From the NCBI GenBank assembly GCA_964579145.1, contig CAZOGB010000002.1, positions 592 to 64,591 of the forward strand: a stretch of DNA of 64,000 nucleotides, in the 5' to 3' direction. The notes beneath the pieces are model-generated. The model was not told the DNA's origin. It was given only the letters and a program-made list of their open reading frames with translations, and searched no databases. Positions 5,877-38,505 of this stretch are shown here, piece by piece. How positions within the stretch are numbered: position 1 is the stretch's first letter; the number at the start of each line of letters is the position of its first letter. Origin of the DNA: an uncultured bacterium (lineage in GTDB: Bacteria; Armatimonadota; HRBIN16). Position numbers and translations under genes: made by a program.

Positions 5877-7001
5877 TCAGTTGCACCAGTAATCCTGCGT
5901 TACAGGACGATTCTGTATCTCCCTCAAAAACGCTTCCGCTTCCTGCACGCTGGCGAACGCCTCTCCAACCGTCAACCACACTCCCTTTCGCCCCACCTGT
6001 TCCAGCACGTCCAGCGCATCCTGAGCGGTCTCTGCCAGCACCTGAACGCTTTTACCGGCACGCAGGCACTGGCGGTATACCTCCACCCATCGCGCCGCCG
6101 GTCCCCTGCCCGCTCCGTATACCCACTGTACGGCATGGAGGTTGGGTAGCTCCAGCAGAAGGGGCAAGTGTTTCAGAGCATCGGGTCCGTCCAGATGGAA
6201 GATGCTACGCTCTAAGGGTTCCATCTCGAACAGGATGTCGGGCAATATCATCTCCCGCGCCATGTCCACCGACACCATGCACCAGAAGTCGCAACTGGGC
6301 ACATAATAGCGTCCCTGATGGTATGCGGTTAGCCACGTCGTGCAACCGAAGCCTGCTTCCGCTATCCGGCGATATGAGCGTTCGAACGCATCCACAAACG
6401 CCTTTGCGACATGCCTGCCCGCCTGAACCACGAGATCTGGGCAGTCGATGAGGTCGGTGCACAGCGCTTGCGGGTCGCGCAGGGCGGCGAGAATATCGTA
6501 ATTGCCGTGCAGGTCAGTAATGCCGACGATGTAGCGACCTTCGCATCGCTGGATGGCATAGTCCGTCATGCGTTCTATCGTTTGCCAGTAGATGTTATCG
6601 AAGTTCGGCGGTGCTTCCAGAATGCGATACCAGTCCTCTGGTTCGTGTACGGCGGGTTTTGACCAGCTCGTGCCCTCCGAGAACTCCAGCTCGCACCCGA
6701 ACAGCGTGGCAGTAGTCTCGGGACCGAGGTTGGGCCAGTACACGGGGAAGCTATCGCCGACGTATTCATGGCATTCCATCCAGGCGATGGCACTCTCTAC
6801 CGCGTACTCCACGTCCATCCACCGTTCGCGCAGAGAGCGATGTTGCTTGACCGGTCCCTGATAGGGGCGCGAGGGTGCCACATACAGAGTGACGGGAGGG
6901 CGGTCAATCACTTCCCCTACCCACCATGCTTCGAACCGTTCCACTGTTTTTTCAAAGTCCGGTTTCCATTCCAGCGTGCGAATCATGAGAGCTTCCTCCA
7001 T
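5877..7001 (-). CDS. uroporphyrinogen decarboxylase (URO-D)-like family protein, paralogue 1
   Basis: URO-D/MtaA-like TIM-barrel family; candidate starts at M83 (7001) or at M88 (6986), the latter overlapping the upstream stop as ATGA; the N-terminal 82 aa of the track ORF are antisense read-through. Confidence 0.6.
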   Translation of the reverse strand: MEEALMIRTLEWKPDFEKTVERFEAWWVGEVIDRPPVTLYVAPSRPYQGPVKQHRSLRERWMDVEYAVESAIAWMECHEYVGDSFPVYWPNLGPETTATLFGCELEFSEGTSWSKPAVHEPEDWYRILEAPPNFDNIYWQTIERMTDYAIQRCEGRYIVGITDLHGNYDILAALRDPQALCTDLIDCPDLVVQAGRHVAKAFVDAFERSYRRIAEAGFGCTTWLTAYHQGRYYVPSCDFWCMVSVDMAREMILPDILFEMEPLERSIFHLDGPDALKHLPLLLELPNLHAVQWVYGAGRGPAARWVEVYRQCLRAGKSVQVLAETAQDALDVLEQVGRKGVWLTVGEAFASVQEAEAFLREIQNRPVTQDYWCN

Positions 7002-8101
7002 CGCCGTGACTGTTTGACCAGTTCGTCTGCCTCTTCGGGCGAGCGTGCCCAGGTGCTTATCAGCACGCCGCGTGTGCCCAGCGCTTCCACCAGCGGCTGT
7101 ACGCTTTCTGGGGGCACGCCCAGCGCCAGTATCCCCTTGCCTGTACGCAGCGCCTTTTGGTACAGAGGATACCAGCACGGGTCGCCTGCATGAGGTTGCC
7201 CGGCGCCTGGCGTCCACTGAATGGCGTTCAGCTTCTTGATACTGCATAGCGCGTCCAGGTGCTTGATCGCGTTCACGCCGTCCAGGTGATAGATGGTGTT
7301 ATCCAGCCGTTCACACTGCTGCTCTAGATACGGCAGGACGAACTCGTTGAACAGCTCAGGGCTGATCATGCACGACATATCGCACTGCAGTTTCGCCGTC
7401 CTTCCGATTCCCCAGATGTTAAATGCCGAGAAGACCGTGCCTCCGTCCCTGTCGCGGATAATCTCGGCGAAGGCGTCATAGTAGTCAAAGTAGCGGGCGA
7501 GGATGTCTCGCTGAAGCCGATGCACGTGTTCGGGATGGTCTACCAGGTCGGTCAGCAGCTCCAGCGTGCCGCGCAGAGACGCCAGAGTATCCAGATTCTC
7601 CACAAAGTCGGGGAAGCTCACCAGCGCTTTGCCCTCGAAATGACGCATCCCCTGGCGCGCCATCTCTGTGTTGATTTTCCAGTACTTTTCTTCGGGGTTG
7701 TACGGCGGTATCTCCGCAGTGGTGATATCGTCAAACACCTTGCCGTACCATACGGTGTTGTGGTCAAAGGTAGGTGGGCTACCAAGATGAATAGCCAGAC
7801 TGCCCGGACCGAGATTGGTATCAAACCAAGGGAAACCGTCACCCCCATGATAAGTATGGGCTATCTGCCACTCGTTGGAGATGATGCGGTATTCGATGTC
7901 CAGCCATTGCTCCTCTGGCGTCGGGTCGGGCTTGGGTGCAGGGACATCCACAACGGGCTTCTCAAGCGGCGCGTATACGATAAGTAGAGGCCCTTCTATC
8001 TCCTCTCGCGCCCACCATGCCATATAGCGAGGTTTCACCTTGTCCCAATCAGGTTTGTACAGCAGCGACACCCCTGTTACCTCCTGTTGTGCTATCCTCA
8101 T
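6983..8101 (-). CDS. uroporphyrinogen decarboxylase (URO-D)-like family protein, paralogue 2
   Basis: Clear paralogue of the downstream gene, sharing motifs such as WWxxE, LGPG, HLDG and QWTPGAG; tandem duplication. Confidence 0.6.
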   Translation of the reverse strand: MRIAQQEVTGVSLLYKPDWDKVKPRYMAWWAREEIEGPLLIVYAPLEKPVVDVPAPKPDPTPEEQWLDIEYRIISNEWQIAHTYHGGDGFPWFDTNLGPGSLAIHLGSPPTFDHNTVWYGKVFDDITTAEIPPYNPEEKYWKINTEMARQGMRHFEGKALVSFPDFVENLDTLASLRGTLELLTDLVDHPEHVHRLQRDILARYFDYYDAFAEIIRDRDGGTVFSAFNIWGIGRTAKLQCDMSCMISPELFNEFVLPYLEQQCERLDNTIYHLDGVNAIKHLDALCSIKKLNAIQWTPGAGQPHAGDPCWYPLYQKALRTGKGILALGVPPESVQPLVEALGTRGVLISTWARSPEEADELVKQSRRWRKLS

Positions 8102-10692: not shown

Positions 10693-11202
10693 TCAGGCAA
10701 GCTGCGATTCGAGAAACTGCTGGAAGCGTGATAGGTCCTCCTGCACGATGCTCCAGCGATCGAACACTGCCTGCCTCAACTGCGCCACCCGTTGAGGGTC
10801 CAGAGTGTAAGTGTAGGAATGGCGAAACACATGGCGGAAGCCTCGCAGGTCGTCCAGCAGTTTGAAACTGTCGGAAGAGACCAACCGTGGGCGTATCGTT
10901 GGCACATCAATGCTCATGCGCCGTAACAGGTCCCGATGGTAGCTTCCGCCCGGTTCCAGCTGATTCTCAAATGCGCTGGCGACCTCCTCGAACAGGTCTT
11001 CTACAGCCGAATACAGGTTGTGCAGGTAGTAACCTGTGACGACAACGCGCTCCTGATTATCCGGCTGGGTCGCCTGAAGGCTCTGCAGGATGTTATCGAT
11101 GACCTGCATCTGGTTCTGAAAGTAGCCCAGTAACAGGGCGATTGCCTCGCGCTTCACAGAATCCTCAGCCCCCTCTGGATAATCTGCTCCCTGAACAGGC
11201 AT
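10693..11202 (-). CDS. hepT: HepT-like HEPN toxin (DUF86 / nucleotidyltransferase substrate-binding family)
   Basis: Rx4HxY motif (RHVFRHSY) near the C-terminus; immediately downstream of, and overlapping, the MntA-like gene. Confidence 0.65.
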   Translation of the reverse strand: MPVQGADYPEGAEDSVKREAIALLLGYFQNQMQVIDNILQSLQATQPDNQERVVVTGYYLHNLYSAVEDLFEEVASAFENQLEPGGSYHRDLLRRMSIDVPTIRPRLVSSDSFKLLDDLRGFRHVFRHSYTYTLDPQRVAQLRQAVFDRWSIVQEDLSRFQQFLESQLA

Positions 11203-11498
11203 TTCTCCAGTTCAATTAGGTCAACGTCCCTGTCCAGCAGGGCTTCCAGCTCCACAAGGGTACGAAAATAATCGCCCTCAAAGCCCTCCACCGCCACGTC
11301 GATATCAGAAAAGGAGTGAAATCTGCCCTCCGTGAGCACCGAGCCGGTCAGGTAAACCGCTTTGACATTCTTGTCAGCGAAGTAGTCGCGCAGGGCTTCA
11401 ACCGCCTTGGCGAGTACCTGCTGGCGAACCCGTTCGCGCTCGGCATACTTCTCCTGCAAACGCTTTTCCCAGAGTGAAATATCGTACATCAGCACCAT
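11154..11498 (-). CDS. mntA: MntA-like minimal nucleotidyltransferase antitoxin
   Basis: 114 aa; Pol-beta NTase motif LTGSVLTEGRFHSFSDIDVAV (GS...DxD); start trimmed to the ATG at 11498; the 5' part of the track ORF is non-coding. Confidence 0.7.
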   Translation of the reverse strand: MVLMYDISLWEKRLQEKYAERERVRQQVLAKAVEALRDYFADKNVKAVYLTGSVLTEGRFHSFSDIDVAVEGFEGDYFRTLVELEALLDRDVDLIELEKCLFREQIIQRGLRIL

Positions 11499-11576: not shown

Positions 11577-12308
11577 GTGAGGGTGGTGATCCGAGTGAGT
11601 GTGACGCAACCCAAAACGCAACCTGAAACCGAAACCATCTATCCAGAAAGTGACGGAAAGCCGTTGGCGGACAATACGAAACAGTTTCGCTGGATACTGT
11701 ACATCTACACCGGTGTCGCCAGTCTTTTCAAGGACGACCCCAATGTGTTTATCGCCGGCGACCTGCTGTGGTATCCTGTGGAAGGCGATAACAAAACCCG
11801 CACCGCGCCTGATGTGATGGTGGCTTTCGGCAGACCCAAGGGCGACCGCCCCTCCTACAAGCAATGGGAGGAGGACAACATCCCGCCGCAGGTGGTGTTC
11901 GAAGTGCTCTCTCCCGGCAACCGCCTGAGCGAGCTGATTGAGAAGTTCCTGTTCTACCAGCGGTTCGGCGTGGAGGAGTATTACGTGTATGACCCGGACA
12001 CCGGACGCCTGGACGGATGGATTCGCGAGGGCAACGAACTGCGCCCCATTGAGAACATGGAAGGCTGGGTCAGTCCCCGCTTGGGCATTCGCTTCATGAC
12101 GCGAGGGAGCGACCTCGTGCTGATTCGCCCCGACGGGCTGCCGTTCGTGAACCCGGAGGAGCTGGAGTCATTGCTGACTGAGGCGCAAAAGCGGGCGGAG
12201 GAAGCGGAAACCAGAGCACAGGAAGCAGAGGCACGGGCGAGGGATGCAGAGGTTAGGGCAGAACGACTGGCGCAAAAGCTACGAGAGCTGGGCGTCGAGC
12301 CAGAGTAA
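11577..12308 (+). CDS. Uma2-family endonuclease (DUF820) with a C-terminal coiled-coil tail
   Basis: YPESDGKPLADNTKQFRWI N-terminal signature of Uma2/PD-(D/E)xK putative restriction endonucleases; an A/E/R-rich coiled coil at the C-terminus; an extended -10 (TGgTATAAT) at 11550-11558. Confidence 0.7.
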   Translation: MRVVIRVSVTQPKTQPETETIYPESDGKPLADNTKQFRWILYIYTGVASLFKDDPNVFIAGDLLWYPVEGDNKTRTAPDVMVAFGRPKGDRPSYKQWEEDNIPPQVVFEVLSPGNRLSELIEKFLFYQRFGVEEYYVYDPDTGRLDGWIREGNELRPIENMEGWVSPRLGIRFMTRGSDLVLIRPDGLPFVNPEELESLLTEAQKRAEEAETRAQEAEARARDAEVRAERLAQKLRELGVEPE

Positions 12309-16168: not shown

Positions 16169-17092
16169 CTATGAGTCTGTGGAGGAGGCACGCTCCGCCT
16201 CATCAGACGGGACGGATTGCCTGGGCGGGGGCAGCACGTGCGTTGCCTCCTCCAGCATCTGACGGTAGATTTTTTCTTTTTCTTTCTTGCTGAGCTGTTC
16301 GCCCGTTGTCCAGAACCAGTACGCGCTCTTGCCCACCACGTAGGTGCCGGCGTAAGCGATGGCTCCTTTAACCAGCACCCCTACCCCGCCCGGCACAATT
16401 CCCACGAACTCCCGGGCAAGCGACCGCCAGCCCATCGCTCCCGCTACCACCGGCACAATCTCTCTGAGCCTATCGCGCGTGTGATACGGCAGACCCAGCG
16501 CCGCCGCGATTTTGAGCAACAGCAGTATCTGGTTTTTCGTCAGCAGGACAATATCTGCCACCGCAGCAGGCGGGAGGAACGCGCTGGCTATCGGGATGAC
16601 GCCCGGTATTGCCGAGAGCATGGCAATCTGCCCGTTCACCCGCGAAGCTTCCCTGATGAGATGCTCTGTCGCGGGCTCGCGAAAGAGAGGAAACCGCCTC
16701 GCCAGGGCGATTGCCAGACCGGGCATGTCGGTGATGATGCGCCTGGCGACCTGTAGGCTCTGCTCGGGCAGGAGCCACTGGTAGTGCTCGCCGAGGATCG
16801 TCTCGGTGCCTCCGCCACAGTCGATAACGATATCGGCTGGCTCGTCGGGCAGATCTGTGGAGCATATCAGATGCTGGCGCGAGCGGTCGCGCTCTGCCGC
16901 AGATAGCCCCTCCAGCAGTTGTTCGCTCACGTCGTGCGTGCGCGTTGGGCTACCCACCAATGCAATACGGAACGGTTTTTCGGCGAGCTCCCGTATCTCC
17001 TCGGTGGAAAGCTCTTTGCTGATTTGCAGTATCTCGCGGATATTACGAGCCAACCTGCCCATCCTTCGCAAAGGTATCACCCCAATCCACAT
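16169..17092 (-). CDS. hypothetical protein, DUF697-like (degenerate GTPase-like N-terminus plus amphipathic C-terminus)
   Basis: ALVGSPTRTHDV resembles a G1 region but lacks the GKS/T; the C-terminal AIPGVIPIASAFLP...LLLLKIAAALGLPY resembles DUF697; last gene of the gyrA operon. Confidence 0.4.
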   Translation of the reverse strand: MWIGVIPLRRMGRLARNIREILQISKELSTEEIRELAEKPFRIALVGSPTRTHDVSEQLLEGLSAAERDRSRQHLICSTDLPDEPADIVIDCGGGTETILGEHYQWLLPEQSLQVARRIITDMPGLAIALARRFPLFREPATEHLIREASRVNGQIAMLSAIPGVIPIASAFLPPAAVADIVLLTKNQILLLLKIAAALGLPYHTRDRLREIVPVVAGAMGWRSLAREFVGIVPGGVGVLVKGAIAYAGTYVVGKSAYWFWTTGEQLSKKEKEKIYRQMLEEATHVLPPPRQSVPSDEAERASSTDS

Positions 17093-18188
17093 AAGGTCGC
17101 AGGTACTCTTTCAGTTCGCTCACTGCCTGCTCGGTGAACTGTCGGCTGGTTTCCATCATGCGCTCCGGCAATGCGGGTGGCGTGCTGTCGCGCAGCGTCT
17201 GCACCTCATCGTAAAGCGCGAACTGCGGTGGTATCTGATTGGGCACCGGCACGCCCTTCAGCGTGGCTAACGCCATCGTCCACATCCGCGTGACCGCTGT
17301 CAGCGAATAACCACCGCCGCCTGTCGCCACGATTGGCAGTCCCTGCTCTACCACCCATTGCACCGCCCGCAGCCAGCCCTGCGTGGTCAGCGAGACGTGG
17401 GCTAACGGGTCCGTGTAGTGCGGGTCTGCGCCCATCTGCAGAACGACCACTTCAGGCTGGAACCAGCGGAACAGTGTCGGCACCACCTGCTGAAACGCCC
17501 ACCACCATATTTCGTCGTCCGCATAGCGTCCCAGCGCGATGTTTGCCGAGGCGCCGCGCCCCTCTCCCGCTCCAATCTCGTCGGGATGCCCCGTTCCCGG
17601 AAAGAGGAACCTGCCCGACTCGTGAATGGAGATGGTCAGCACCTGCGGGTCGCGGTAATACAGCCACTGTACCCCGTCGCCGTGGTGCACGTCTATATCC
17701 AGATAGACAATCCGGCGGTATTTTTGTTTCAGCACGTGGATGGCGACCGCCGGGTCGTTGAAAATACAGAAGCCCGCTGCTTCCTCCCTGCGTGCATGAT
17801 GCAGTCCGCCCGCCAGGTTTACCGCCACCTGTGCGCCGTCCATGACCGCCTGCGCCGCGGCGACAGACGCCCCCACCACTGCCAACGAGGCTTCAAACAT
17901 GCCGCGAAACGGCGGGTTATCTCCGCTCGCGAAGCCGAACTCGTGATAGCCCGGCACGTGCTTGCCCTCGCTCAGCGCCTGTACCACCTGTACGTATCGT
18001 GGCGAGTGTACCTGGGCGACCAGTTCCGGCTCAGCAGGTGAAGCCTCCACAATATCCTCCTCGTGCAGAACACCCAGCATCCGCGCCAGCTCCTGCGAGA
18101 GCGTTACTCGTTCGGGGCGCAAGGGGTGATAGGCGGAAAAACTGTAGCGCTCTACCCCAGGGCAAACTATATACACGAAGGTTCTCAT
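17043..18188 (-). CDS. histone deacetylase-family protein (AcuC/acetoin utilisation-like)
   Basis: HDAC class motifs: GFCIFNDPAVA, DIDVHHGDG and GGGGY. Confidence 0.75.
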   Translation of the reverse strand: MRTFVYIVCPGVERYSFSAYHPLRPERVTLSQELARMLGVLHEEDIVEASPAEPELVAQVHSPRYVQVVQALSEGKHVPGYHEFGFASGDNPPFRGMFEASLAVVGASVAAAQAVMDGAQVAVNLAGGLHHARREEAAGFCIFNDPAVAIHVLKQKYRRIVYLDIDVHHGDGVQWLYYRDPQVLTISIHESGRFLFPGTGHPDEIGAGEGRGASANIALGRYADDEIWWWAFQQVVPTLFRWFQPEVVVLQMGADPHYTDPLAHVSLTTQGWLRAVQWVVEQGLPIVATGGGGYSLTAVTRMWTMALATLKGVPVPNQIPPQFALYDEVQTLRDSTPPALPERMMETSRQFTEQAVSELKEYLRPYVDWGDTFAKDGQVGS

Positions 18189-18258
18189 CGGTGGAAACCC
18201 TTATCCATAATGTCCAGCAATAGTTTCGCCCGGCGCACACCGAGTCCTGGCGCTCGCC

Positions 18259-18693
18259 CTAAACATCCACGTAGAACTCGGCTTCCCAGCCGTCCGGCGT
18301 CTGTTCCACTCTCAGGAGATGGTAGGTAACTGCTTTGACGGGCGCACCATGCAGCTGTGAGTTGTCCTCTACAAGCAGCCCATGCGCCTCGCCCTCAACT
18401 ACTGTGTCGGTTACCTGGTTGACCTTGAAGTCGATAAAGACCACCTTTTGCACATCGGTCAGGTATATCAGTTCGCGAAGCCACTTCACCAGCAGATCAG
18501 AGCAGTCCAGCGGTTCAGGCACTTCCACGCGGATGGGGAGATGAACATCCGCTTGCTTGCCTTCGGGATTAATGACCAGCCGATACATGCCTCGCGAGGC
18601 GTTCTCGAACAGTTCCTCTACGGTTTTGCCACACGCCCGAACGCCCTTATCGGCGGTATGGTCCAGAATCTGGTATTTTTCTGCTTCGTTCAT
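18259..18693 (-). CDS. archease
   Basis: YQILDHTADKGVRACGKT...KAVTYHLLRVEQTPDGWEAEFYVDV matches archease (DUF101) end to end; start trimmed to the ATG at 18693. Confidence 0.7.
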   Translation of the reverse strand: MNEAEKYQILDHTADKGVRACGKTVEELFENASRGMYRLVINPEGKQADVHLPIRVEVPEPLDCSDLLVKWLRELIYLTDVQKVVFIDFKVNQVTDTVVEGEAHGLLVEDNSQLHGAPVKAVTYHLLRVEQTPDGWEAEFYVDV

Positions 18694-18733
18694 GGCTTGC
18701 TCACCTTTCAGGTTCTCTGCGAGCAGGTATCTT

Positions 18734-19177
18734 TCACCCGCGCTCTCTGCGTTGGACAATACCTGTCCTCATCCACTGCTCAAACTGCTGGCGCATGCAG
18801 GCGAAACTGCCGTCATCCACTAACACCAGCCCCTTGTCCAGAGCCTCCAGCATCAGAGGATGATACTCTTCGAACATCATCTGCCACTCGCTTCTACTAT
18901 ACGCAAAGACATCTGCCTCGGTTTTCACAAACTGCTGGAATTCGCCGATACGGTCGATGAAGCGTTTGCCGTCGTCTATGTTCAAACCGATAAGCAGGTC
19001 ATAATCGCTGTAGGGGAGCCAGTTTCCCTTCGCCATCGAGCCGAAGAGCACCATAAAGGGTATCTGGTCTCCCCGCTCTGCAAAGATACGTTCCACTGTC
19101 TGGCGAAACGCCTCATAGCGAGGGCGATTCGATAGCCTGGCAAGCGTACTCGAGCACAGCTTCGGCGAGCGACTCAA
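18734..19177 (-). CDS. minimal nucleotidyltransferase (Pol-beta superfamily, MNT-like) with a short C-terminal helical extension
   Basis: LFGSMAKGNWLPYSDYDLLIG motif; apparent TTG start at 19177 overlapping the gyrA stop as TTGA, so the start codon is uncertain. Confidence 0.6.
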   Translation of the reverse strand: MSRSPKLCSSTLARLSNRPRYEAFRQTVERIFAERGDQIPFMVLFGSMAKGNWLPYSDYDLLIGLNIDDGKRFIDRIGEFQQFVKTEADVFAYSRSEWQMMFEEYHPLMLEALDKGLVLVDDGSFACMRQQFEQWMRTGIVQRRERG

Positions 19178-21648
19178 GAGCTCTCACCCTCTTCCACGCC
19201 TTCGTCGTCGATGCGCTGGACAATACGCGCCAGAGCGTTCACGTAGTCATCCGGGTCGGGAGTCATGATGCGCACGCCCTGCGCCGCACGCCCCGTGCGG
19301 CGAATCTGCTCCACCGGCACGCGGATAGCTTTGCCCTGCGCGGTCACCGCGATAATACGGTCATCGGGCAGAACGCCTTTCGCGTCCACCAGAAAGCCGG
19401 TGCGCTGGGTAACGTTAAAGGTGATGATGCCTTTGCCAGCGCGTCCCTGCAGACGGTACTCGCTGAAGGGTGTGCGCTTGCCGTAGCCCTTCTCGGAGAT
19501 GACCAGCAGGTCGCGGTCTTTGTACACCTTGACCATGGCAACGACGACATCATCCTTAGCCAGCTGGATACCGCGCACACCTCCTGCTGCCCTGCCCATC
19601 GCGCGCACATCCTTCTCGTGAAAGCGCAGGCTCATCCCCTTGCGCGTGACGAACACCAGCTCGTCGTTGCCGGAGGTGACCTGCACCCAGCCCAGCTCGT
19701 CGCCCTCCTCCAGGTCAAAGGCAAACAGCCCGTTCGCACGCAGGTTGGCGAACTCCGACAGGGCAATGCGCTTGACCTCGCCCCGGCGCGTGCCCATCAC
19801 CAGATACTTATCGGGCGAGAAGTCGGCAATGGAGACCGTGGCGGTAATCTTCTCGCCCGGCTCGATGCGAATGAGGTTGATAATCGCAGTGCCCCGTGCC
19901 TGTCGCGTCGCCTGCGGAACCTCATAAGCCTTCAGCCGGTACACGCGCCCGCGGTCGGTGAAGAAAAGGATGTAGTGGTGCGTGCTGACCTGGAAGATAT
20001 GTTCCAGCGTGTCCTCTTCCTTCGTGGTGGTAGCGATAATGCCTTTGCCGCCGCGCCGCTGACTGCGGTAGGTATCCAGCGGCAACCGCTTGATGTAGCC
20101 GTCGCGCGTGATGGTGACCAGCATCTCCTCTTCAGGAATCATATCCTCTTCGCCGATCTCTTCTGCCTCACGCGCGATGATTCGGGTGCGCCGCTCGTCG
20201 CCGTATTTATCCTTCAGCTCCTTCAGCTCCTGCTTGATTATCTGCGCCACGCGCCGCTCGTCCGCCAGGATGTCTTCCAGATAGGCGATTTCTTGCAAAA
20301 GCCCCTTGTATTCATCCTCCAGCCTCTGCTGTTCCAGCGCGGTCAACTGGCGCAACTGCATGGAGAGTATGGCTTCCGCCTGAATCTGAGTGAAGCCGAA
20401 CCGGCGCATGAGGGCGCGGCGAGCCACTTCGCTGTTCTCGGACTGCCGGATGATGCGGATGATTTCGTCCAGGAAGCGCACCACAACCTGCAGCCCTTCC
20501 AGAATGTGCGCTCTCTGCTGGGCACGATACAGCTCGTAGCGCGTGCGCCGAACGATAACATCACGCCGGTGGTTGATGTAGTTCTGCAGTACCTGCTTGA
20601 GGTTGAGCACACGCGGCACGCCGTCCTCCAGCGCGAGCATAATGACGCCAAACGACAGGCGCATCGGCGTGTGCTTCAACAGGAAGTTCAGTACCTTATG
20701 CGGGTTCACGTCGCGCCGCAGCTCGATAACCACCCTCATGCCGGTGCGGTCGGTGAAGTCATCAATGGCGGTGATGCCATCCACGCGCTTGCCCTTCACC
20801 AGGTTGGCTATCTGCTCAATCAGCTTCGCCTTGTTCACCTGGTAAGGTAGTTCGGTAATCACAATGGCTTGTTTGCCACCGTCCATCGGCTCAATCTGGG
20901 TCTTCGCCTGCATGATAATCTGCCCGCGCCCGGTCTCGTACGCCTCGCGAATGCCCTTTGTGCCCAGGATAAGTCCGGCGGTTGGGAAGTCGGGACCCGG
21001 CAGGTATTTCATCAGGTCGGTCACCGTGGCTTGCGGGTGGTCAATCAGATAGGTGATAGCATCTGCCACTTCGCGCAGATTGTGCGGAGGCACATTGGTC
21101 GCCATGCCCACGGCAATACCGCTTCCCCCGTTGCAGATGAAGTTCGGGAACTTGCCGGGCAGGACCATCGGTTCCATCGTTGACTGGTCGTAGTTGGGTT
21201 GCCAGTCCACGGTCTCCTTGTCGATATCCTCCATCATCTCCATCGCCAGCGGCGAGAGTCGGCACTCGGTATACCGCATCGCCGCGGGAGGGTCTCCATC
21301 CACACTGCCGAAGTTCCCCTGTCCGTCGATCAGGGGATAGCGCATGCTGAAGTCCTGAGCCATGCGCACGAGGGTGGCATACAGCGCTTCGTTGCCGTGT
21401 GGGTGGAAGCGTTTCATGGTCTCCCCGCAGACGGCGGCGCATTTCACGTGCGCACTGTTCGGGGTGACACTCATCTCTCGCATGGCGTAGAGGATGCGCC
21501 TCTGCACGGGCTTCAGTCCATCACGCACATCGGGCAGGGCGCGCGCGATGATGGTGCTCATCGCGTAACCGAGGTACGAACGGCTTAACTCTTCCTCAAG
21601 CGGTACGACTTCAATCTCCGGCTGTTGCTCCAGAATCTCCTCAGGCAT
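19174..21648 (-). CDS. gyrA: DNA gyrase subunit A
   Basis: Canonical GyrA N-terminus ([29 protein letters not shown]), the active-site Tyr region, and C-terminal beta-pinwheel repeats; 824 aa. Confidence 0.9.
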
Positions 21649-21703: not shown

Positions 21704-21732
21704 ATTATAACAAAAGTGTTCTTCGGTGGCAA
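21704..21732 (-). promoter_or_regulatory. sigma70-type promoter for gyrA (TTGCCA-17-TATAAT)
   Basis: On the minus strand: TTGCCA, a 17-nt spacer, TATAAT; lies about 55 nt upstream of the gyrA ATG. Confidence 0.45.
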
Positions 21733-21784: not shown

Positions 21785-22162
21785 CTACATTGCCTTGTTC
21801 ACGATGTCGCTCAGCGACACCACGCCCATCAGCCGGTGCTCGCCGATGACCGGCGCACGCGACAGCCCCGTGTTCGCCAGCAGTCGCGCCACGTACTTCA
21901 CGTCCAGATTCGGATTGACCACCACCAGCGGCTTGGACATAATCTCGTGTACCTGCACCGACTCGGGCGACAGCCCCTTCGCCACCACCTTGTACACGAT
22001 GTCGCGCTGGGTGATGATGCCATAGGCGTCGTCCTCGCTGCGCCTCTCCACGATAAGCGACCGCACGCCCTTTTGCTTCATCAGCGCGACCGCCTCCGCC
22101 ACGGTGGCAGTGCCCTGAATGGTGACCACGTCGGTGGTCATGATGTCTTTCGCCTTTGGCAT
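21785..22162 (-). CDS. CBS-domain pair protein
   Basis: Two CBS repeats (DIMTTDVVTI...; EIMSKPLVVV...); 125 aa; minus-strand promoter TTGCAC-17-TATAAT at 22266-22294 gives a roughly 100-nt leader. Confidence 0.75.
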   Translation of the reverse strand: MPKAKDIMTTDVVTIQGTATVAEAVALMKQKGVRSLIVERRSEDDAYGIITQRDIVYKVVAKGLSPESVQVHEIMSKPLVVVNPNLDVKYVARLLANTGLSRAPVIGEHRLMGVVSLSDIVNKAM

Positions 22163-28461: not shown

Positions 28462-29268
28462 GTGAAGACACTGGATATCAGCATTGCCGACATCGCCCTG
28501 AGGCTCGAATGCATGGAGGAATCGTTCCTGACCGACCTCGTGCAGGAGCGATACGGGGCGTTCTTGCTCGCACGCGCTGAACAGCCGCACATCCGTGTCC
28601 TTCTTCGACCGAAGCCCTCTCCGCCTACCCGGGCACGTATGGAGAGCGTGAAGGTTCGTCAGGCGGAGGGCGGCTGGCGGTTTGTGTATGATACCTTCGT
28701 GGCGGACGTCGCCCCGGAGGCGGATCGTGCGGAGGTGGACTGCCTGCGCAGTGTGTATGCCGTCGATTCTTTCCTTCGTACCCTGCTGGCTCTGTATCTG
28801 CCCCAACGTGATGGGGTGATGGTACACGCCTCCGCAGTGAGGCATGGACACTGGGGATATGTGTTCGCCGGGCGGTCGGGCGCAGGCAAGAGCACGGTGG
28901 CGCGGATACTGTCGGGCGAGACTGAGGTTCTCAGCGATGAGCTGGTCGCCCTGCGGCGCCTGTCAGGGGCATGGCACGTGTACGGCACACCTTTCTGGGG
29001 CGACTTCGCCCGCGCAGGCGTGAATCTCAACGCACCGCTACGCGCCATTTGCCTGCTTCAGCACGCCAGAGAGCCTCGTCTTGAAAGACTATCACGGCGC
29101 GATGCCCTGACCGGCGTTCTGCAATGCAGTTTGCAGTTCGCCGAGGGTCCGCAGGTTGCCGAATGGATGCTGAATGTGGTCTCTGCGCTGGTGCAGGATG
29201 TGGCGGTTTATCGCCTGTATTTCCCGCCCAGCATAGAGTTCTGGGGAGTGGTGCTGGAAGGAGTATAG
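28462..29268 (+). CDS. HPr-kinase C-terminal-domain-like P-loop kinase (HprK-related)
   Basis: Walker A FAGRSGAGKSTVARIL followed by SDELVAL, resembling the HprK/P C-domain; 5 nt after the dprA stop, so co-transcribed. Confidence 0.5.
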   Translation: MKTLDISIADIALRLECMEESFLTDLVQERYGAFLLARAEQPHIRVLLRPKPSPPTRARMESVKVRQAEGGWRFVYDTFVADVAPEADRAEVDCLRSVYAVDSFLRTLLALYLPQRDGVMVHASAVRHGHWGYVFAGRSGAGKSTVARILSGETEVLSDELVALRRLSGAWHVYGTPFWGDFARAGVNLNAPLRAICLLQHAREPRLERLSRRDALTGVLQCSLQFAEGPQVAEWMLNVVSALVQDVAVYRLYFPPSIEFWGVVLEGV

Positions 29269-33942: not shown

Positions 33943-35148
33943 GTGCTGGAGGAAGTGTTTATGCCACAGTCGGAAGCGGTTTCAGAAAAGCGGTTTATTC
34001 TGCCCGCCGGGCAGTTTCAGCGGTTGTTTGACGCCCTGCATCAGGGCGGCTATCAGACCATTGCCCCTACCCTGTTGGACGACGCCATCGTGTACGAGAC
34101 GGTGGATTCGGTGAGTGACCTGCCCCTCGGTCTGACCGACGAACAGCGTGCGGGCGCATACAGAGTGAAACGCAACCCCGAGGGGCGAACTTTCTTTCGT
34201 TATGCAGTGGGTCCGCGTTCATGGAAGCACTATCTCTATCCACCCCGGCAGAGGCTCTGGCGGGCACAACGCAACGGCGATGGAGGCTTCCATGTGCTCG
34301 CCGAGCGGGAGGACGTGCCTCGCTATGCGTTCATCGGCGTACGCGCCTGCGAGCTCGCTGCCATCCAGATACAGGACAGGGTGTTTCTGAGCGAGCAGTA
34401 TCAGGACGAGCACTACCAGCGCAGGCGGGAGAACGCCCTGTTGATAGCCCTCAACTGCACCGCCCCGTCGGGAGTTTGCTTCTGCACCTCCCTGGGAACG
34501 GGACCGCGCGCCAAAGACGGCTTTGACCTTGCCCTCACCGAGGTCTTCGGCAATAATGAGCACTTCTTTCTGGTGGAGGTGGGAACGGAGAGCGGCGCTT
34601 CGCTGGTAGAAGATCTTGGCATGCCTCCAGCCACAGAACAACAGTGTCAGATGGCTGAGGCTCTGATAGCAAACGCCGAGCAACGGATACTGAAGCGTCT
34701 GGACATCTCCGACCTGAAGGAATTGCTCTACCGCAATCTGGACAGTCCACACTGGGAAGAGGTGGCGAGGCGATGCCTTACTTGTTCGAACTGCACGATG
34801 GTCTGCCCTACCTGTTTCTGCCACACGGTGGAAGATGTGACGAATTTGCAGGGCACGGTGGCCGAGCGATGGCGTCAGTGGGATTCCTGTTTCCACGTTG
34901 ACTTCTCGTATATTCACGGCAGCGCAGTGCGCATTTCAGAGGCATCGCGTTATCGGCAGTGGATTACCCACAAACTGGCATCCTGGCAGGACCAGTTCGG
35001 CGTGATAGGGTGTGTGGGATGTGGACGGTGCATCACCTGGTGCCCGGTGGGCATAGATATTACCGAGGAGGTGCGCGCCTTGCGACGTCGCGAGGGGAGC
35101 AGAGCCGCTCCAGCATCACCAAAGGAGGAGAACCATGCGAACGCTTGA
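33943..35148 (+). CDS. hydB: group 3b [NiFe]-hydrogenase beta subunit (HydB-like; 4Fe-4S dicluster protein)
   Basis: Two CxxCxxCxxxCP ferredoxin motifs ([12 protein letters not shown]; [12 protein letters not shown]) plus an N-terminal sulfhydrogenase-beta-like domain; first gene of the hyd operon; the start is either the GTG at 33943 or the ATG at 33961. Confidence 0.65.
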
Positions 35149-35596
35149 GACCATCCTGGCAGAACATCCCTTCTTTGAGGGGTTGCCCGACAAGCACCTG
35201 AAAGTCATCGTGGGCTGTGCCTCCAATGTGAGCTTCGAGGAAGGCGAGACCATCTTCCGCGAGGGCGAAGAGGCGAATCGCTTCTACCTCATCCGACAGG
35301 GGCGGGTGGCGCTGCAGGTGTACGCAGCGGGCATTGGCACGATAACCATTCAGACGCTGGACGCAGGAGACATTTTGGGGTGGTCGTGGCTGGTGCCTCC
35401 CTATCGCTGGCACTTCGACGCGCGAGCGGTGGAACCGGTGCGAGCCATCGCACTGGACGGTGAGTGCTTGCGCCGCAAATGCGAGGAGGACCACGATCTG
35501 GGATATGAACTGCTGAAGCGGTTCGCGGAGATAATCACCCAGCGGCTTCAGGCTACTCGCCTGCAGTTACTGGATGTGTACGGTCTCAGAAGGTAG
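35135..35596 (+). CDS. cyclic-nucleotide-binding-domain protein (CAP/Crp effector domain only, no HTH)
   Basis: [48 protein letters not shown] is the cNMP-binding beta-roll signature; 153 aa; overlaps the hydB stop by 14 nt. Confidence 0.6.
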
Positions 35597-35628
35597 CCTA
35601 TCAGGGAGGAGGACGATTTCCCAAAACG

Positions 35629-36444
35629 ATGATACCATGCCCTTTTCGCATACGGACAGTGCGCCGTGAAACGCAGGATACCTTCACGCTGGAGCTGGAG
35701 CCGGCGGGCGGTCCCGAACGATTCGCGTTCAAGCCCGGGCAGTTCAATATGCTGTATGTGTTTGGCGTGGGCGAGATACCCATCTCCATCAGCGGCGACC
35801 CCGCCGACCCCCGAGTGCTCATGCACACCACGCGCGAGGTGGGAACCGTCACCAAAGCGATGGGCAGGTTGAAGCGGGGCGATATTATCGGCGTGCGCGG
35901 ACCGTTCGGCACACCGTGGCCCGTGCAGGAGGCAGAGGGTGCAGATGTGGTGATTGTCGCTGGAGGCATCGGGCTGGCGCCTTTGCGCCCCGCACTCTAC
36001 CACGTGCTGGCACATCGCGACCGCTACGAGAAAGTCGTTCTGCTTTACGGCACGCGCACGCCAAGCGACATCCTGTACCGGCGCGAACTCCAACGATGGC
36101 GAGCACAGTTCGACCTCGAAGTGCACATCACTGTAGACCGTGCAATGAGCGGCTGGCGCGGCAATGTCGGGGTGGTGACCTCGCTGATACCACGTGCACC
36201 TTTTGACCCGCGCAGTGCGGTGGCGCTTGTCTGTGGTCCCGAAATCATGATGCGCTTTACCGTGCTGGAACTGCAGCGGCGAGGCGTTCCCCCCTCGCAG
36301 ATTTACATCTCGATGGAACGCAACATGAAGTGCGGTGTGGGCATCTGCGGGCACTGCCAGCTCGGTCACTGTTTTGTGTGCAAGGATGGTCCCGTGTTCC
36401 GCTACGACACGATACAGCATCTGTTTGAGAGGCGGGAGATATAG
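35629..36444 (+). CDS. hydG: group 3b [NiFe]-hydrogenase gamma subunit (FAD/NAD(P)-binding oxidoreductase, HydG-like)
   Basis: Ferredoxin-NADP-reductase-like fold (RPxS-like FKPGQF; GGIGLAPL) and a C-terminal 2Fe-2S Cys cluster ([17 protein letters not shown]). Confidence 0.7.
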
Positions 36445-36446
36445 CC

Positions 36447-37229
36447 ATGGCGCGTGCAATCAAGCCAAAGCTGGCGGTCTGGAAGTTTGCTTCATGCGAC
36501 GGGTGTCAGCTCAGCCTGCTGGACTGTGAGGAAGAACTGCTGGAGGTCGCTGGCGCAATAGAGATTGCCTACTTTCCCGAAGCGAGCCGGGCGGTAGTGC
36601 GGGGACCCTACGACATCTCGCTGGTGGAAGGTTCCATCACCACTCCACACGATGCCGAGCGCATCCACCAGGTGCGCCGGGCGTCGCGTTTTCTGGTCAC
36701 TATCGGTGCGTGTGCGACTGCCGGGGGCATTCAGGCACTGCGCAATTTTAAGGATGTTCAGGAGTTCATCCGGGCGGTGTATGCGTCTCCGCAATACATC
36801 GAAACCCTGAGCAAATCCACCCCCATCCGCGACCATGTGTTTGTGGATTACGAGCTTCGGGGTTGCCCTATTAACAAATATCAACTGCTGGAAGTCATCA
36901 ACGCTTATCTCAACGGGCGCAAGCCGAACATCGCTCCACACAGCGTGTGCACGGAGTGCAAGCGGCGTGGCATTGTGTGTGTGATGGTGGCGAACGGCAC
37001 GCCCTGCCTTGGACCCGTCACCCATGCGGGATGCGGCGCCATCTGCCCTTCTTATCGGCGCGGATGCTACGGGTGCTTTGGTCCCAAGGAAACGCCCAAC
37101 CCCGCTGCGCTGAGCAAGCGTTGGAAGCAGCTCGGCGTGAAAGAGGATAACCTGGTGCGCGCCTATCGCAGTTTCAACGCCTATTCGGAAGCCTTCCGAC
37201 GAGAGAGTGAAAGCCATGAAAGGTCATAA
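36447..37229 (+). CDS. hydD: [NiFe]-hydrogenase small (delta) subunit, group 3
   Basis: [26 protein letters not shown] is the Nuo20k/hydrogenase small-subunit proximal-cluster motif; 260 aa. Confidence 0.8.
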
Positions 37230-38505
37230 CATCCGGGTAGATTATCTGGCAAGAGTGGAGGGCGAAGGCTCTCTGCATGTTCGCTTCAGGGGCGGAAAAC
37301 TGGAGGAAGTGCATTTTAAGATTTTCGAGCCTCCTCGCTTCTTCGAGGCGTTTTTGCGCGGGCGAAGCTATCATGAAGCACCGGACATCACCGCCCGAAT
37401 CTGCGGCATCTGCCCGGTGGCCTACCAGATGAGCGCAGCGCACGCGATGGAAGATGCCTTTGGCGTGAAAGTGGAAGGGCCCATTCGCGACCTGCGCCGA
37501 CTGATATACTGCGGCGAATGGATAGAGAGCCACGTGCTTCACGTCGCCCTGCTTCACGCCCCGGACTTTCTGGGCTATGAAGACGCCATCCAGATGGCGC
37601 GAGAGCATCCGCAAATCGTGCAGACCGCCTTGCAGCTGAAAAAGGTGGGCAACGACCTGGTGAACCTCATCGGCGGGCGCGAGATACATCCGATAAACGT
37701 GAAAGTGGGAGGCTTCTACAGGGTTCCCCGTCGGCGCGACCTGGACGCGATTGAAGAGCGTTTAAAGTGGGCGCGCGACGCTTCGGTTCAGCTGGTTAAG
37801 TGGGCGGCGAGCCTGCCCATTCCTGACTTCGAGCAGGATTACGAGTTTGTGGCTCTGCAACACCCCGCAGAGTATCCGATGAACGAAGGCAGGCTCGTCT
37901 CGAATAAAGGGTTGGACATCGCCATAGATGAGTTCGAGACTCACATCGTCGAAGAGCATGTGCCCTACTCCAACGCTCTGCACGCGCGTATCGCCAGACG
38001 TGGAGCCTATCTGGTGGGACCGCTGGCGCGGTTCAACCTCAATTTCGCGCGACTATCGCCGCTGGCGCAGGAGGCTGCCAGAGAGGTTGGCGTCGTTCCT
38101 CCCTGCCGTAACCCGTTCCAGAGCATCGTGGTTCGCGCCATCGAAACCCTCTATGCGTGCGACGAGGCTCTGCGTATCATTGAACACTACACCATGCCGA
38201 ACAAGCCGGCTATAGACATACGTCCTTGCGCGGCGACCGGGCATGGATGCACTGAAGCCCCGCGCGGCATCCTCTACCATCGCTATCGCGTGGATGAATA
38301 CGGCACCATTCTGGACGCCCGAATCGTGCCGCCTACTGCCCAGAACCAGAAAACCATTGAGGCGGACCTGCGGAGCCTGATTGAGGCGAATCCTGACCTG
38401 CCGCTGGAACAGCTACAGTGGCGATGCGAGCAGGCGATACGCAACTACGATCCGTGTATCTCCTGCGCCACACACTTCCTGAAAATCAACATACAGAGGG
38501 AATAG
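37207..38505 (+). CDS. hydA: [NiFe]-hydrogenase large (alpha) subunit, group 3b
   Basis: N-terminal [10 protein letters not shown] and C-terminal DPCISCATH Ni-binding CxxC pairs; 432 aa. Confidence 0.85.

What the first reader, a model, noticed from the sequence alone, without database searches (positions are those of the whole stretch)
16169..21648. gyrA operon continues into a nucleotidyltransferase - orphan archease - HDAC-like deacetylase - DUF697-like module
The gyrA stop overlaps a TTG start (TTGA) of a minimal Pol-beta nucleotidyltransferase. This is followed by a bona fide archease (DUF101), an AcuC/HDAC-family deacetylase and a degenerate-GTPase/DUF697-like protein, all co-directional with gaps of 40 nt or less, or overlaps. 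Archease is normally the cofactor of the RtcB RNA ligase, and MNT-type NTases normally pair with HEPN proteins. Neither partner is present here, so this looks like an uncharacterised RNA or nucleotide-modification module attached to gyrA.
Basis: partly seen in the sequence, partly recalled or inferred. Interest (0 to 1): 0.55.

Follow-up and report, generated by a model that had tools for sequence, protein, structure and literature searches.

The report
Decaying toxin-antitoxin remnant beside archease cluster
The small nucleotidyltransferase behind gyrA is the leftover half of a HEPN/nucleotidyltransferase toxin-antitoxin-type cassette whose HEPN gene has been deleted, sitting in front of a lineage-specific archease-deacetylase-unknown gene string, so this is not a new four-gene RNA-modification module.

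Summary
One correction: the archease-HDAC gap is 70 nt, not 40 or less. No rtcB, rtcA or cognate HEPN gene lies in the 64 kb.

Comparative data overturn the "module" reading. Relatives carry gyrA-HEPN-NTase-archease-HDAC-protX. Outside this clade, 26 of 30 assessable NTase homologues have the HEPN gene directly upstream, in unrelated contexts. This is a Class II HEPN/MNT pair (PF05168/PF01909).

In the window the HEPN gene is deleted. The NTase has lost its own ATG and is fused in frame to the old HEPN start, and a TGG-to-TGA change removes its last 11 residues. The closest genome (Chthonomonadia Ch118) shares that junction but has lost nearly all of the NTase.

The constant core is archease-HDAC-protX, found only in this Armatimonadota clade. 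The archease keeps every residue shown to be needed for RtcB activation. In 17 of 18 other Armatimonadota loci it sits beside rtcA. It most likely serves an RtcB encoded elsewhere, which I could not test.

Verdict: largely explained, low novelty.

The parts
19174..21648 (-). gyrA (824 aa). Its TGA stop (19176-19174) overlaps the downstream TTG.
   Evidence: Pfam DNA_topoisoIV plus DNA_gyraseA_C; NCBIfam gyrA equivalogs above cut-off.
21704..21732 (-). Sigma-70-like promoter candidate for gyrA (TTGCCA-17-TATAAT with an extended TG), about 56 nt upstream of the gyrA ATG.
   Evidence: 11 of 12 matches. This is a consensus match only and is not proof of function.
19167..19177 (-). Relic of the deleted HEPN gene: its TTG start and first ~11 nt (TTGAGTCGCTC), now fused in frame to NTase codon 2. 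The NTase's native ATG is lost.
   Evidence: L003 has cTTGAGACGTCC... as the HEPN start overlapping the gyrA stop. Relatives begin the NTase with ATGCCGAAG/ATGCCGACG (MPKL/MPTL). L057 shares the same junction.
18734..19177 (-). Orphan minimal nucleotidyltransferase (147 aa), the MNT half of a Class II HEPN/MNT cassette. The GSX10DXD motif is intact (G46 S47 ... D58 x D60).
   Evidence: Pfam PF01909/PF18765; family alignment A1; HEPN upstream in relatives.
18701..18736 (-). Truncated NTase tail. A premature TGA at 18736-18734 replaces the near-invariant Trp codon (TGG). The former last 10 codons and the ancestral stop (18703-18701) still read in frame (KIPARREPER*).
   Evidence: Direct reading against L009/P0002, which reads ...RRERGWKIPARREPER.
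18259..18693 (-). Archease (144 aa from the conserved ATG). His12, Asp15, Lys120, Asp143 and the C-terminal residue directly after Asp143 are all conserved.
   Evidence: Pfam PF01951; alignment A3; alignment to P. horikoshii archease 4n2p; mutagenesis data in PMC3973293.
17043..18188 (-). Class-I-type Zn-dependent deacetylase (381 aa) with the GGLHHA, DIDVHHGDG, GAD and GGGGY motifs.
   Evidence: Pfam PF00850; best solved relatives are HDAC2, Clr6, RPD3 and HDAC8 at E about 1e-61. No NCBIfam family hit.
16169..17092 (-). protX: a vestigial G-domain (Walker A lost) plus a conserved helical C-terminal region remotely like DUF697. Possible starts are 17092, 17062 or 17053; gene callers use TTG 17053 (294 aa).
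   Evidence: AF2 model with pLDDT 84 and no significant PDB fold match.

Best explanation
The region is two things laid side by side.

(1) A gene string, CBS-gyrA-archease-HDAC-protX, is conserved in a Chthonomonadia-like clade of Armatimonadota.

(2) A HEPN/minimal-nucleotidyltransferase cassette was inserted exactly at the gyrA/archease junction in an ancestor of the clade. It is a Class II HEPN/MNT pair (PF05168 + PF01909), a toxin-antitoxin-type module. Its HEPN start codon overlaps the gyrA stop, so the cassette rides on gyrA transcription and translation.

In the window's lineage the HEPN gene was deleted, leaving only its first ~11 nt. The NTase lost its own ATG and is now read from the old HEPN TTG. 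A TGG-to-TGA change then removed its last 11 residues. It is an orphaned MNT partner on the way to loss, and the nearest sequenced relative has already deleted it. It still has an intact GSX10DXD active-site motif and may still be made by coupling to gyrA translation, but it has no cognate target nearby.

The archease is an ordinary RtcB-type activator. It most likely works in trans on an RtcB ligase encoded elsewhere in the genome.

The HDAC-type deacetylase and protX are probably co-expressed with the archease. There is no evidence that they share a pathway with it or with the NTase.

Shown: gene identities, the deletion junctions, the variability of the cassette, and the distribution of neighbours. 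Inferred: toxin/antitoxin roles (by analogy to HepT/MntA), co-transcription, and an RtcB encoded elsewhere.
For: Relatives with the full arrangement gyrA-HEPN-NTase-archease-HDAC-protX: L003-L005, L013, L021, L065. The HEPN is PF05168 (101.9 bits).

Outside the clade, 26 of 30 assessable NTase homologues (44-57% identity) have a full HEPN directly upstream. None has gyrA or archease next to it. One copy sits between nuoH and nuoI.

Within the clade the cassette is present in 9 loci and HEPN-less in 10. States seen:
- fragments of both genes (L058)
- NTase codons 5-35 only (L059)
- none (L057, gyrA 99% identical)

Junction sequences:
- Window: TTGAGTCGCTC|GCCGAAGCTGTGC
- L057: TTGAGGCGTCC|GCCGAAGCTGTGCTCGAGTACGC, then straight into the archease ribosome-binding region

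The NTase tail lesion is visible against the 96%-identical L009. The same lesions occur in three run assemblies and an NCBI MAG.

L060-L063 carry VWA and MerR genes on the opposite strand between the NTase and archease. L061 has SecA instead of gyrA upstream.

The archease residues required for RtcB activation are all conserved. Archease neighbours:

| Group | Loci | With RtcB nearby | With convergent RtcA |
|---|---|---|---|
| Other phyla | 53 | 46 | 2 |
| Other Armatimonadota | 18 | 0 | 17 |
| This clade | 9 | 0 | 0 |

The Class II definition and the GSX10DXD motif come from PMC7641770.
Against: The orphan NTase is not evolving neutrally. dN/dS is 0.22 between the window and L009, both of which lack HEPN, although this rests on few substitutions. 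It may therefore retain some use.

Toxicity of Class II HEPN proteins has not been demonstrated. PMC7641770 notes that they lack the RX4H RNase motif, so "toxin-antitoxin" is an analogy.

Whether any rtcB exists in this genome is untested. Only 64 kb of it and about 10-kb flanks in relatives were searched.

The archease-HDAC-protX trio stays together in every clade genome, even where gyrA linkage is broken (L061). A purely accidental neighbourhood does not explain that.
Confidence: 0.8

Rival explanations
1. NTase, archease, HDAC and protX act together as a new RNA or nucleotide-modification module co-expressed with gyrA, with the NTase and archease replacing their usual HEPN and RtcB partners.
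For: The genes are tightly packed and co-directional, with no predicted terminator. Both usual partners are absent locally. The NTase active-site motif is intact and dN/dS is below 1.
Against: The NTase is absent or fragmentary in the closest genomes, while archease-HDAC-protX are intact there (L057, L058, L059). Many clade members have the HEPN partner present. Opposite-strand genes separate the NTase from archease in L060-L063. No NTase of this family lies near archease in 71 other archease loci, and no archease lies near the NTase in more than 30 other NTase loci. The window's NTase has lost its start codon and its C-terminus.
Confidence: 0.03
2. Archease-HDAC-protX is a true functional unit specific to this clade. 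The archease has left the RNA-repair context and acts as activator or chaperone of a non-RtcB client: the deacetylase, protX, or gyrase, whose gene lies upstream.
For: The trio is contiguous in all 9 species-level genomes of the clade and in many metagenome contigs, including L061 where gyrA is not upstream. Archease and HDAC abut in L003, and HDAC and protX overlap. The clade's archease has neither RtcB nor RtcA nearby, unlike 63 of 71 other loci. Archease has a second documented client, a tRNA m5C methyltransferase, and is reported to sit beside DNA/RNA-processing genes (PMC3973293).
Against: The linkage is confined to one clade of fairly close relatives (gyrA 94-99% identical). No HDAC-family gene lies within 10 kb of archease in 71 other loci. 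More distant protX homologues (37-41% identity) sit in unrelated contexts without HDAC or archease. All RtcB-activation residues of the archease are retained, including the exact C-terminal position. The literature searched links archease with neither deacetylases nor gyrase.
Confidence: 0.12
3. The orphan NTase is retained because it is still useful on its own. It might neutralise HEPN proteins encoded elsewhere or arriving on mobile elements (an anti-addiction role), or it might have been co-opted for another adenylylation. This is compatible with its origin as a cassette remnant.
For: dN/dS is 0.22 (window vs L009) and 0.39 (L011 vs L064) between HEPN-less genomes. The GSX10DXD motif is intact. 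HEPN-less but otherwise intact NTases occur in several sub-lineages: L008, L011, L062, L064.
Against: Complete or near-complete loss in L057, L058 and L059 shows it is dispensable. The window copy has lost its native start and the near-invariant Trp with the tail. The substitution counts behind the low dN/dS are small, and part of the divergence may predate HEPN loss. No PF05168-type HEPN is found in the window.
Confidence: 0.25

Closest known systems
Class II HEPN/MNT two-gene modules (PF05168 HEPN + PF01909 MNT), as defined by Yao et al. 2020 (PMC7641770). [quoted passage not shown]
   Same: The NTase has the PF01909 domain and the GSX10DXD motif. Its homologues are paired, with overlapping reading frames, with a PF05168 HEPN gene in 26 of 30 assessable loci outside the clade and in about half of the clade. 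The pair occurs as a compact cassette in unrelated genomic contexts.
   Different: In the window the HEPN half is deleted and the NTase is damaged. The gene order is HEPN first, then NTase, whereas in the characterised Class I pairs the MNT gene is upstream of the HEPN gene (PMC7641770). The NTase scores far below the NCBIfam MntA equivalog cut-off (26.7 vs 60). Toxicity of Class II HEPN proteins is unproven.
The archease-RtcB "tRNA splicing/RNA repair" operon (Desai et al. 2014, PMC3973293).
   Same: A bona fide archease fold family member with all residues needed for RtcB activation. In 46 of 53 loci from other phyla sampled here, archease is next to rtcB.
   Different: No rtcB within the 64-kb window or within up to 10 kb in 9 clade genomes. 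The downstream neighbours are an HDAC-type deacetylase and protX instead.
   Same: Same phylum. The archease is the nearest outgroup (42-43% identity) and is likewise unlinked to rtcB.
   Different: The window's clade has lost the rtcA neighbour. Its archease lies behind gyrA and in front of HDAC-protX.
Class I HDAC / bacterial AcuC-like deacetylases (Pfam PF00850).
   Same: Full-length Hist_deacetyl domain with the catalytic His-His dyad, the Asp/His/Asp zinc ligands and the GGGGY tyrosine. The closest solved relatives are HDAC1/2/3/8 and Rpd3.
   Different: No NCBIfam family assignment, and the substrate is unknown. Calling it AcuC is not justified by any test run here.
DUF697 (PF05128) proteins and GTPase-DUF697 fusions. 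That E. coli YcjF belongs here is from my own memory and was not checked.
   Same: JGI labels relatives as "DUF697 family". There are weak PF05128 hits in 4 of 24 relatives. A distant relative (P0250) has an intact GTPase domain in front of the same C-terminal region.
   Different: The window protein has no PF05128 hit at E<=10, has lost the Walker A and NKxD motifs, and has no significant fold match among solved structures.

Membership tests
Class II HEPN/MNT module (PF05168/PF01909; PMC7641770) | The MNT partner carries the NTP_transf_2 (PF01909) domain. | tested here: met
   33.3 bits against a cut-off of 21.
Class II HEPN/MNT module (PF05168/PF01909; PMC7641770) | GSX10DXD motif in the MNT partner. 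| tested here: met
   G46 S47 - 10 residues - D58 Y D60. These columns are invariant in alignment A1.
Class II HEPN/MNT module (PF05168/PF01909; PMC7641770) | An adjacent PF05168 HEPN gene. | tested here: not met
   There is none in the window; only about 11 nt of its 5' end remain. The feature is met in relatives. The window therefore holds a remnant, not a complete module.
Class II HEPN/MNT module (PF05168/PF01909; PMC7641770) | HEPN toxicity that is neutralised by the MNT partner. | not testable with these tools
   This needs expression experiments. It is unproven for Class II in general.
MntA antitoxin (NCBIfam NF047752 equivalog) | Score at or above the curated cut-off. | tested here: not met
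   26.7 bits against a cut-off of 60.
Archease (PF01951) | Pfam domain above the gathering score over the full length. | tested here: met
   114.9 bits against a cut-off of 25, covering profile positions 1-136 of 136.
Archease (PF01951) | Residues required for RtcB activation: His9, Asp12, Lys117, Asp141 and a C-terminus one residue after Asp141 (P. horikoshii numbering). | tested here: met
   The window has H12, D15, K120 and D143, with V144 as the last residue.
Archease-RtcB operon | rtcB adjacent to archease. | tested here: not met
   Searches found no hit in the window or in 9 clade loci. The same queries detect RtcB at about 30% identity in 46 other loci.
Archease-RtcB operon | An RtcB encoded somewhere in the same genome. 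| not testable with these tools
Histone deacetylase family (PF00850), class I type | The domain plus the catalytic His-His dyad, the zinc ligands and the catalytic Tyr. | tested here: met
   279.9 bits; the alignment to HDAC2 shows GGLHHA, DIDVHHGDG, GAD and GGGGY.
AcuC (acetoin utilisation deacetylase) | A specific family assignment. | tested here: inconclusive
   No NCBIfam hit at E<=0.01. Only the general Pfam domain matches.
DUF697 (PF05128) | A Pfam match. | tested here: not met
   No hit for the window protein at E<=10. Four of 24 relatives give weak hits, the best at E 0.0029. JGI names relatives DUF697.
P-loop GTPase | Walker A GxxxxGK[ST] and NKxD motifs. | tested here: not met
   the window reads GSPTRTHD and has no NKxD. 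The distant relative P0250 reads GEPGAGKT and NKAD and hits GTP_EFTU/RsgA.

The most novel reading that the evidence does not exclude
In this Chthonomonadia-like clade the archease has left the rtcA/rtcB RNA-repair neighbourhood kept by the rest of the phylum and by most other bacteria. It has become locked to a class-I-type deacetylase and a pseudo-GTPase/DUF697-like protein directly behind gyrA. It might therefore activate or chaperone a non-RtcB client (the deacetylase, protX or gyrase). That would make this a second bacterial role for archease.
Probability: 0.1. Interest if true: 0.6.

Novelty: new member of a known kind. Interest (0 to 1): 0.2.

Why it matters
Mostly as a caution. A tidy-looking operon of "orphan" RNA-enzyme genes turns out to be a housekeeping gene string with a decaying cassette wedged into it, and only comparison with relatives reveals this.

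Two small positive points remain.

- The locus gives an unusually clear stepwise series of how a HEPN/MNT cassette embedded in an essential operon is dismantled. The stages are: complete pair; HEPN deleted; NTase fused to the HEPN start and truncated; NTase deleted.
- Armatimonadota archeases are systematically unlinked from rtcB. They lie next to rtcA in most of the phylum, and next to gyrA and a deacetylase in this clade. That would be worth a look if complete genomes of the clade prove to lack rtcB.

Tried and rejected
- **Diverse archease alignment.** I repeated it with the 8-sequence alignment A4.
- **Fold search for protX.** The afdb50 library was unavailable. The PDB Foldseek search gave nothing significant (best E 0.45), so there is no functional lead from the fold.
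- **Pfam on protX.** No hits even at E<=10.
- **PADLOC.** Nothing for archease, HDAC, protX or the L003 HEPN. The NTase gave only weak hits to candidate families PDC-S09 and PDC-M05A.
- **RNA genes.** The Rfam gathering-threshold scan and the tRNA scan of the window found nothing.
- **Literature.** No paper in the library holds both "archease" and "gyrase". The archease plus deacetylase co-mentions are incidental.
- **Other archease partners in the window.** I looked for a NOL1/NOP2/Sun m5C methyltransferase or an RtcA/RtcB gene. None was found among 30 further ORFs or by tblastn.
- **An alternative NTase start.** I considered that the NTase starts further downstream and is unlinked to gyrA. 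The next in-frame starts (GTG at codon 28, ATG at codon 41) would remove conserved N-terminal residues (R18, P19). TTG 19177 is therefore the only start that preserves the domain.
- **The HEPN Arg-to-Gly change.** I considered reading it as toxin inactivation in the gyrA-linked copies. I did not adopt this, because Class II HEPN proteins are reported to lack the RX4H motif anyway, and the retained copies are under strong purifying selection.

Full report
**What is there.** On the minus strand of the window, ORF listing, direct reading and Pfam/NCBIfam scans give the following:

| Gene | Coordinates | Size | Family evidence |
|---|---|---|---|
| CBS-domain gene | 21785-22162 | 125 aa | PF00571 |
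| gyrA | 19174-21648 | 824 aa | gyrA equivalog, 1177 bits |
| NTase | 18734-19177 | 147 aa | PF01909/PF18765 |
| archease | 18259-18693 | 144 aa | PF01951, 114.9 bits |
| HDAC-family deacetylase | 17043-18188 | 381 aa | PF00850, 279.9 bits |
| protX | 16169-17053/17092 | 294-307 aa | no Pfam hit |

The NTase TTG overlaps the gyrA TGA as TTGA. After the NTase stop there are 40 nt before the archease ATG at 18693. That ATG is the start shared by relatives, not the TTG 18759 used by gene callers. Archease to HDAC is 70 nt, not 40 or less. HDAC and protX overlap.

A 175-nt gap then precedes a sugar-kinase/PFK block. A strong promoter-like site lies about 56 nt upstream of gyrA, and no terminator-like site separates gyrA from protX. 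The same DNA, with the same 147-aa NTase, occurs in three independent run assemblies and an NCBI MAG.

**Whose genome.** The closest named relatives are Armatimonadota. "Chthonomonadia bacterium Ch118" (L057) has gyrA 99%, HDAC 97%, protX 94% and archease 90% identical. HRbin16 and several hot-spring MAGs follow.

**The NTase is half of a HEPN/NTase cassette.** A homologue search found a small family. Its genomic contexts are decisive.

- On a 775-kb JGI contig (L003) the order is gyrA-HEPN(132 aa, PF05168)-NTase-archease-HDAC-protX. The HEPN start overlaps the gyrA stop, and the HEPN 3' end overlaps the NTase start.
- A 50%-identical NTase sits with the same HEPN family between nuoH and nuoI in an unrelated genome.
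- I ran tblastn over 46 metagenome loci plus the others. Outside the gyrA-linked clade, 26 of 30 assessable NTase loci have a full HEPN immediately upstream. None has gyrA or archease beside it.
- PF05168 plus PF01909, with GSX10DXD in the NTase, is what Yao et al. call Class II HEPN/MNT pairs (PMC7641770). The window's NTase has that motif (G46 S47 ... D58 x D60).
- It is not an MntA equivalog by NCBIfam (26.7 bits against a cut-off of 60).

**The cassette is being dismantled in this lineage.** Within the gyrA-linked clade, 9 loci keep HEPN and 10 do not. Among species-level genomes:

| Locus | State of the cassette |
|---|---|
| L063, L065 | Both genes present (L065 HEPN has an in-frame stop) |
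| L062, L064 | NTase only |
| L058 | Fragments of both genes |
| L059 | NTase codons 5-35 only, followed by unrelated sequence |
| L057 (closest genome) | gyrA stop, 46 nt, then archease |

- In L003 the gyrA stop overlaps the HEPN start (cTTGAGACGTCC...).
- The window reads TTGAGTCGCTC|GCCGAAGCTGTGC. That is the HEPN start and about 11 nt joined to NTase codon 2.
- Relatives start the NTase with ATG-CCG-AAG (MPKL...). The window's NTase has therefore lost its own ATG and borrows the HEPN TTG.
- L057 carries the same junction (TTGAGGCGTCC|GCCGAAGCTGTGCTCGAGTACGC) and then jumps straight to the archease ribosome-binding region. The HEPN deletion thus predates the split of the two lineages, and L057 later deleted the NTase.
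- L009 (NTase 96% identical) has a different junction, with a 34-nt spacer and the native ATG. The three lineages are each about 92% identical at the DNA level.

The window's NTase also ends at TGA where L009 and nearly all relatives have an almost invariant Trp (TGG). The former last ten codons and the old stop still read in frame, seven nt before the archease ATG.

The orphan NTase is not yet neutral. dN/dS is 0.22 between the window and L009, based on few substitutions. Some residual use cannot be excluded.

**NTase and archease are neighbours by accident.**

- In L060-L063 two opposite-strand genes (VWA, MerR) lie between the NTase and archease. In L061 SecA, not gyrA, is upstream. There, archease-HDAC-protX must have their own promoter.
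- In L008 the NTase follows gyrA with no archease directly after it: a Sua5-like gene lies on the opposite strand, and the contig ends about 0.5 kb downstream.
- None of 71 archease loci outside the clade has this NTase family or an HDAC-family gene within up to 10 kb.

**The archease.** It keeps the residues whose substitution abolishes RtcB activation in P. horikoshii: His9, Asp12, Lys117, Asp141 and the C-terminal residue right after that Asp (PMC3973293). In the window these are H12, D15, K120, D143 and V144, the last residue.

A genome-contig scan gave 80 archease loci, with these neighbours:

| Group | Loci | RtcB adjacent | Convergent RtcA |
|---|---|---|---|
| Other phyla | 53 | 46 | 2 |
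| Other Armatimonadota | 18 | 0 | 17 |
| Window's clade | 9 | 0 | 0 |

E. coli RtcB detects those RtcB genes at about 30% identity, so the negative result for the window is meaningful. That negative result used 8 RtcB and 3 RtcA queries at E<=1. Pfam on 30 further window ORFs also found no RtcB, RtcA or NOL1/NOP2/Sun methyltransferase.

The phylum-wide pattern is an archease unlinked from rtcB but still in an RNA-repair setting. Together with the conserved activation residues, this makes "RtcB encoded elsewhere" the most economical reading. I could not search whole genomes, so this remains an inference.

**HDAC and protX.** The deacetylase is class-I-like. Its best solved relatives are HDAC2, Clr6, Rpd3 and HDAC8 at E about 1e-61. 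It has the His-His dyad, the zinc ligands and the GGGGY tyrosine. It has no NCBIfam assignment, so "AcuC" is not established.

ProtX has a vestigial G-domain. It reads GSPTRTHD where the distant relative P0250 has GEPGAGKT and NKAD. Its helical C-terminal region is strongly conserved. JGI labels relatives "DUF697 family", but Pfam support is weak: 4 of 24 relatives, best E 0.003, and none for the window protein. The AF2 model is confident (pLDDT 84) yet has no significant match among solved structures.

More distant protX homologues (37-41% identity) sit in unrelated contexts: TGT-protX-TatD, next to an M16 peptidase, and others. None has HDAC or archease nearby. The archease-HDAC-protX linkage is therefore confined to this clade.

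**Verdict.** The proposed four-gene RNA or nucleotide-modification module is not supported.

- The NTase is a damaged remnant of a Class II HEPN/MNT cassette that inserted at the gyrA/archease junction and is being lost.
- The archease looks like a normal RtcB cofactor.
- What remains unexplained is a clade-restricted archease-deacetylase-protX synteny. It could reflect shared regulation, or, with low probability, a non-RtcB client for archease.
- The single check that would change the score is whether complete genomes of this clade encode rtcB.

Noticed in passing
window 10693-11489 (-), with 11577-12308 (+): A second, complete and unrelated MNT/HEPN pair lies about 7 kb from the finding. A 111-aa Polbeta/NTP_transf_2 NTase (11154-11489) is followed by an overlapping HepT-like_2 protein (10693-11157/11202). 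This is the Class-I-like order, NTase first. A Uma2-family endonuclease gene lies next to it on the other strand.
   Followed up: partly
L003 9658-10056; also L013, L015, L020, L060, L063, L065 (HEPN genes): All gyrA-linked HEPN copies have Gly (HFG-x-x-Q-T-G-H-NLN) where almost all copies in other contexts have Arg (HFR-x-P-Q-F-G-H-NLN). L013 also has His changed to Arg, and L065 has His changed to Cys plus an in-frame stop. Yet the retained copies are under strong purifying selection (dN/dS 0.03-0.12). Whether this Arg is catalytic in Class II HEPN proteins is unknown.
   Followed up: partly
L006 9637-10459 (NCBI GCA_054032375.1, contig JBPNPS010000020.1): A 50%-identical HEPN/NTase cassette is wedged inside the NADH dehydrogenase operon. 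It starts 23 nt after nuoH, and the gene after it (a 4Fe-4S ferredoxin-domain, nuoI-like gene) starts at the last base of its stop codon. Like the gyrA insertion, it sits promoterless inside an essential operon.
   Followed up: no
L071-L124 (18 Armatimonadota loci), e.g. L086 9995-11557 (Fimbriimonadales KatS3mg018, AP024673.1): In 17 of 18 other Armatimonadota genomes the archease gene is tail-to-tail with rtcA (RNA 3'-phosphate cyclase), with no rtcB within the flanks (up to 10 kb). I did not find this arrangement described in the papers I read.
   Followed up: partly
L095 6096-10414 and L136 5839-10414: In two related MAGs from outside Armatimonadota, the string gyrA - TPR-like lipoprotein - nucleoside diphosphate kinase - archease is co-directional, and no rtcB lies downstream in L136. 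The TPR-like and Ndk labels are read from the ORF translations only. This is a second, independent case of archease in a gyrA gene string.
   Followed up: no
L063 3876-6043 and L061 5141-7328: A VWA-domain gene (489 aa) and a MerR-family regulator (204 aa) lie on the opposite strand, inserted between the NTase and archease in one sub-lineage. The gyrA/archease junction appears to be a recurrent insertion and rearrangement point.
   Followed up: partly
L026 1031-1402 and L027 614-985: Some distant cassettes carry a second, divergent HEPN gene (about 35% identical) directly downstream of the NTase, giving HEPN-NTase-HEPN.
   Followed up: no
window 33943-38505 and 47709-49979 (+): A NiFe-hydrogenase-type cluster (4Fe-4S protein, NAD-binding/FeS subunit, small subunit-like Oxidored_q6, large subunit NiFeSe_Hases), with the maturation factor HypF about 9 kb further on.
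   Followed up: no
window 5877-7247 (-), 6983-8101 (-), 51988-53907 (+), 28462-29268 (+): Long ORFs (268-639 aa) with no Pfam hit at E<=1e-4. The first two overlap each other, so at most one of them is likely to be real.
   Followed up: no
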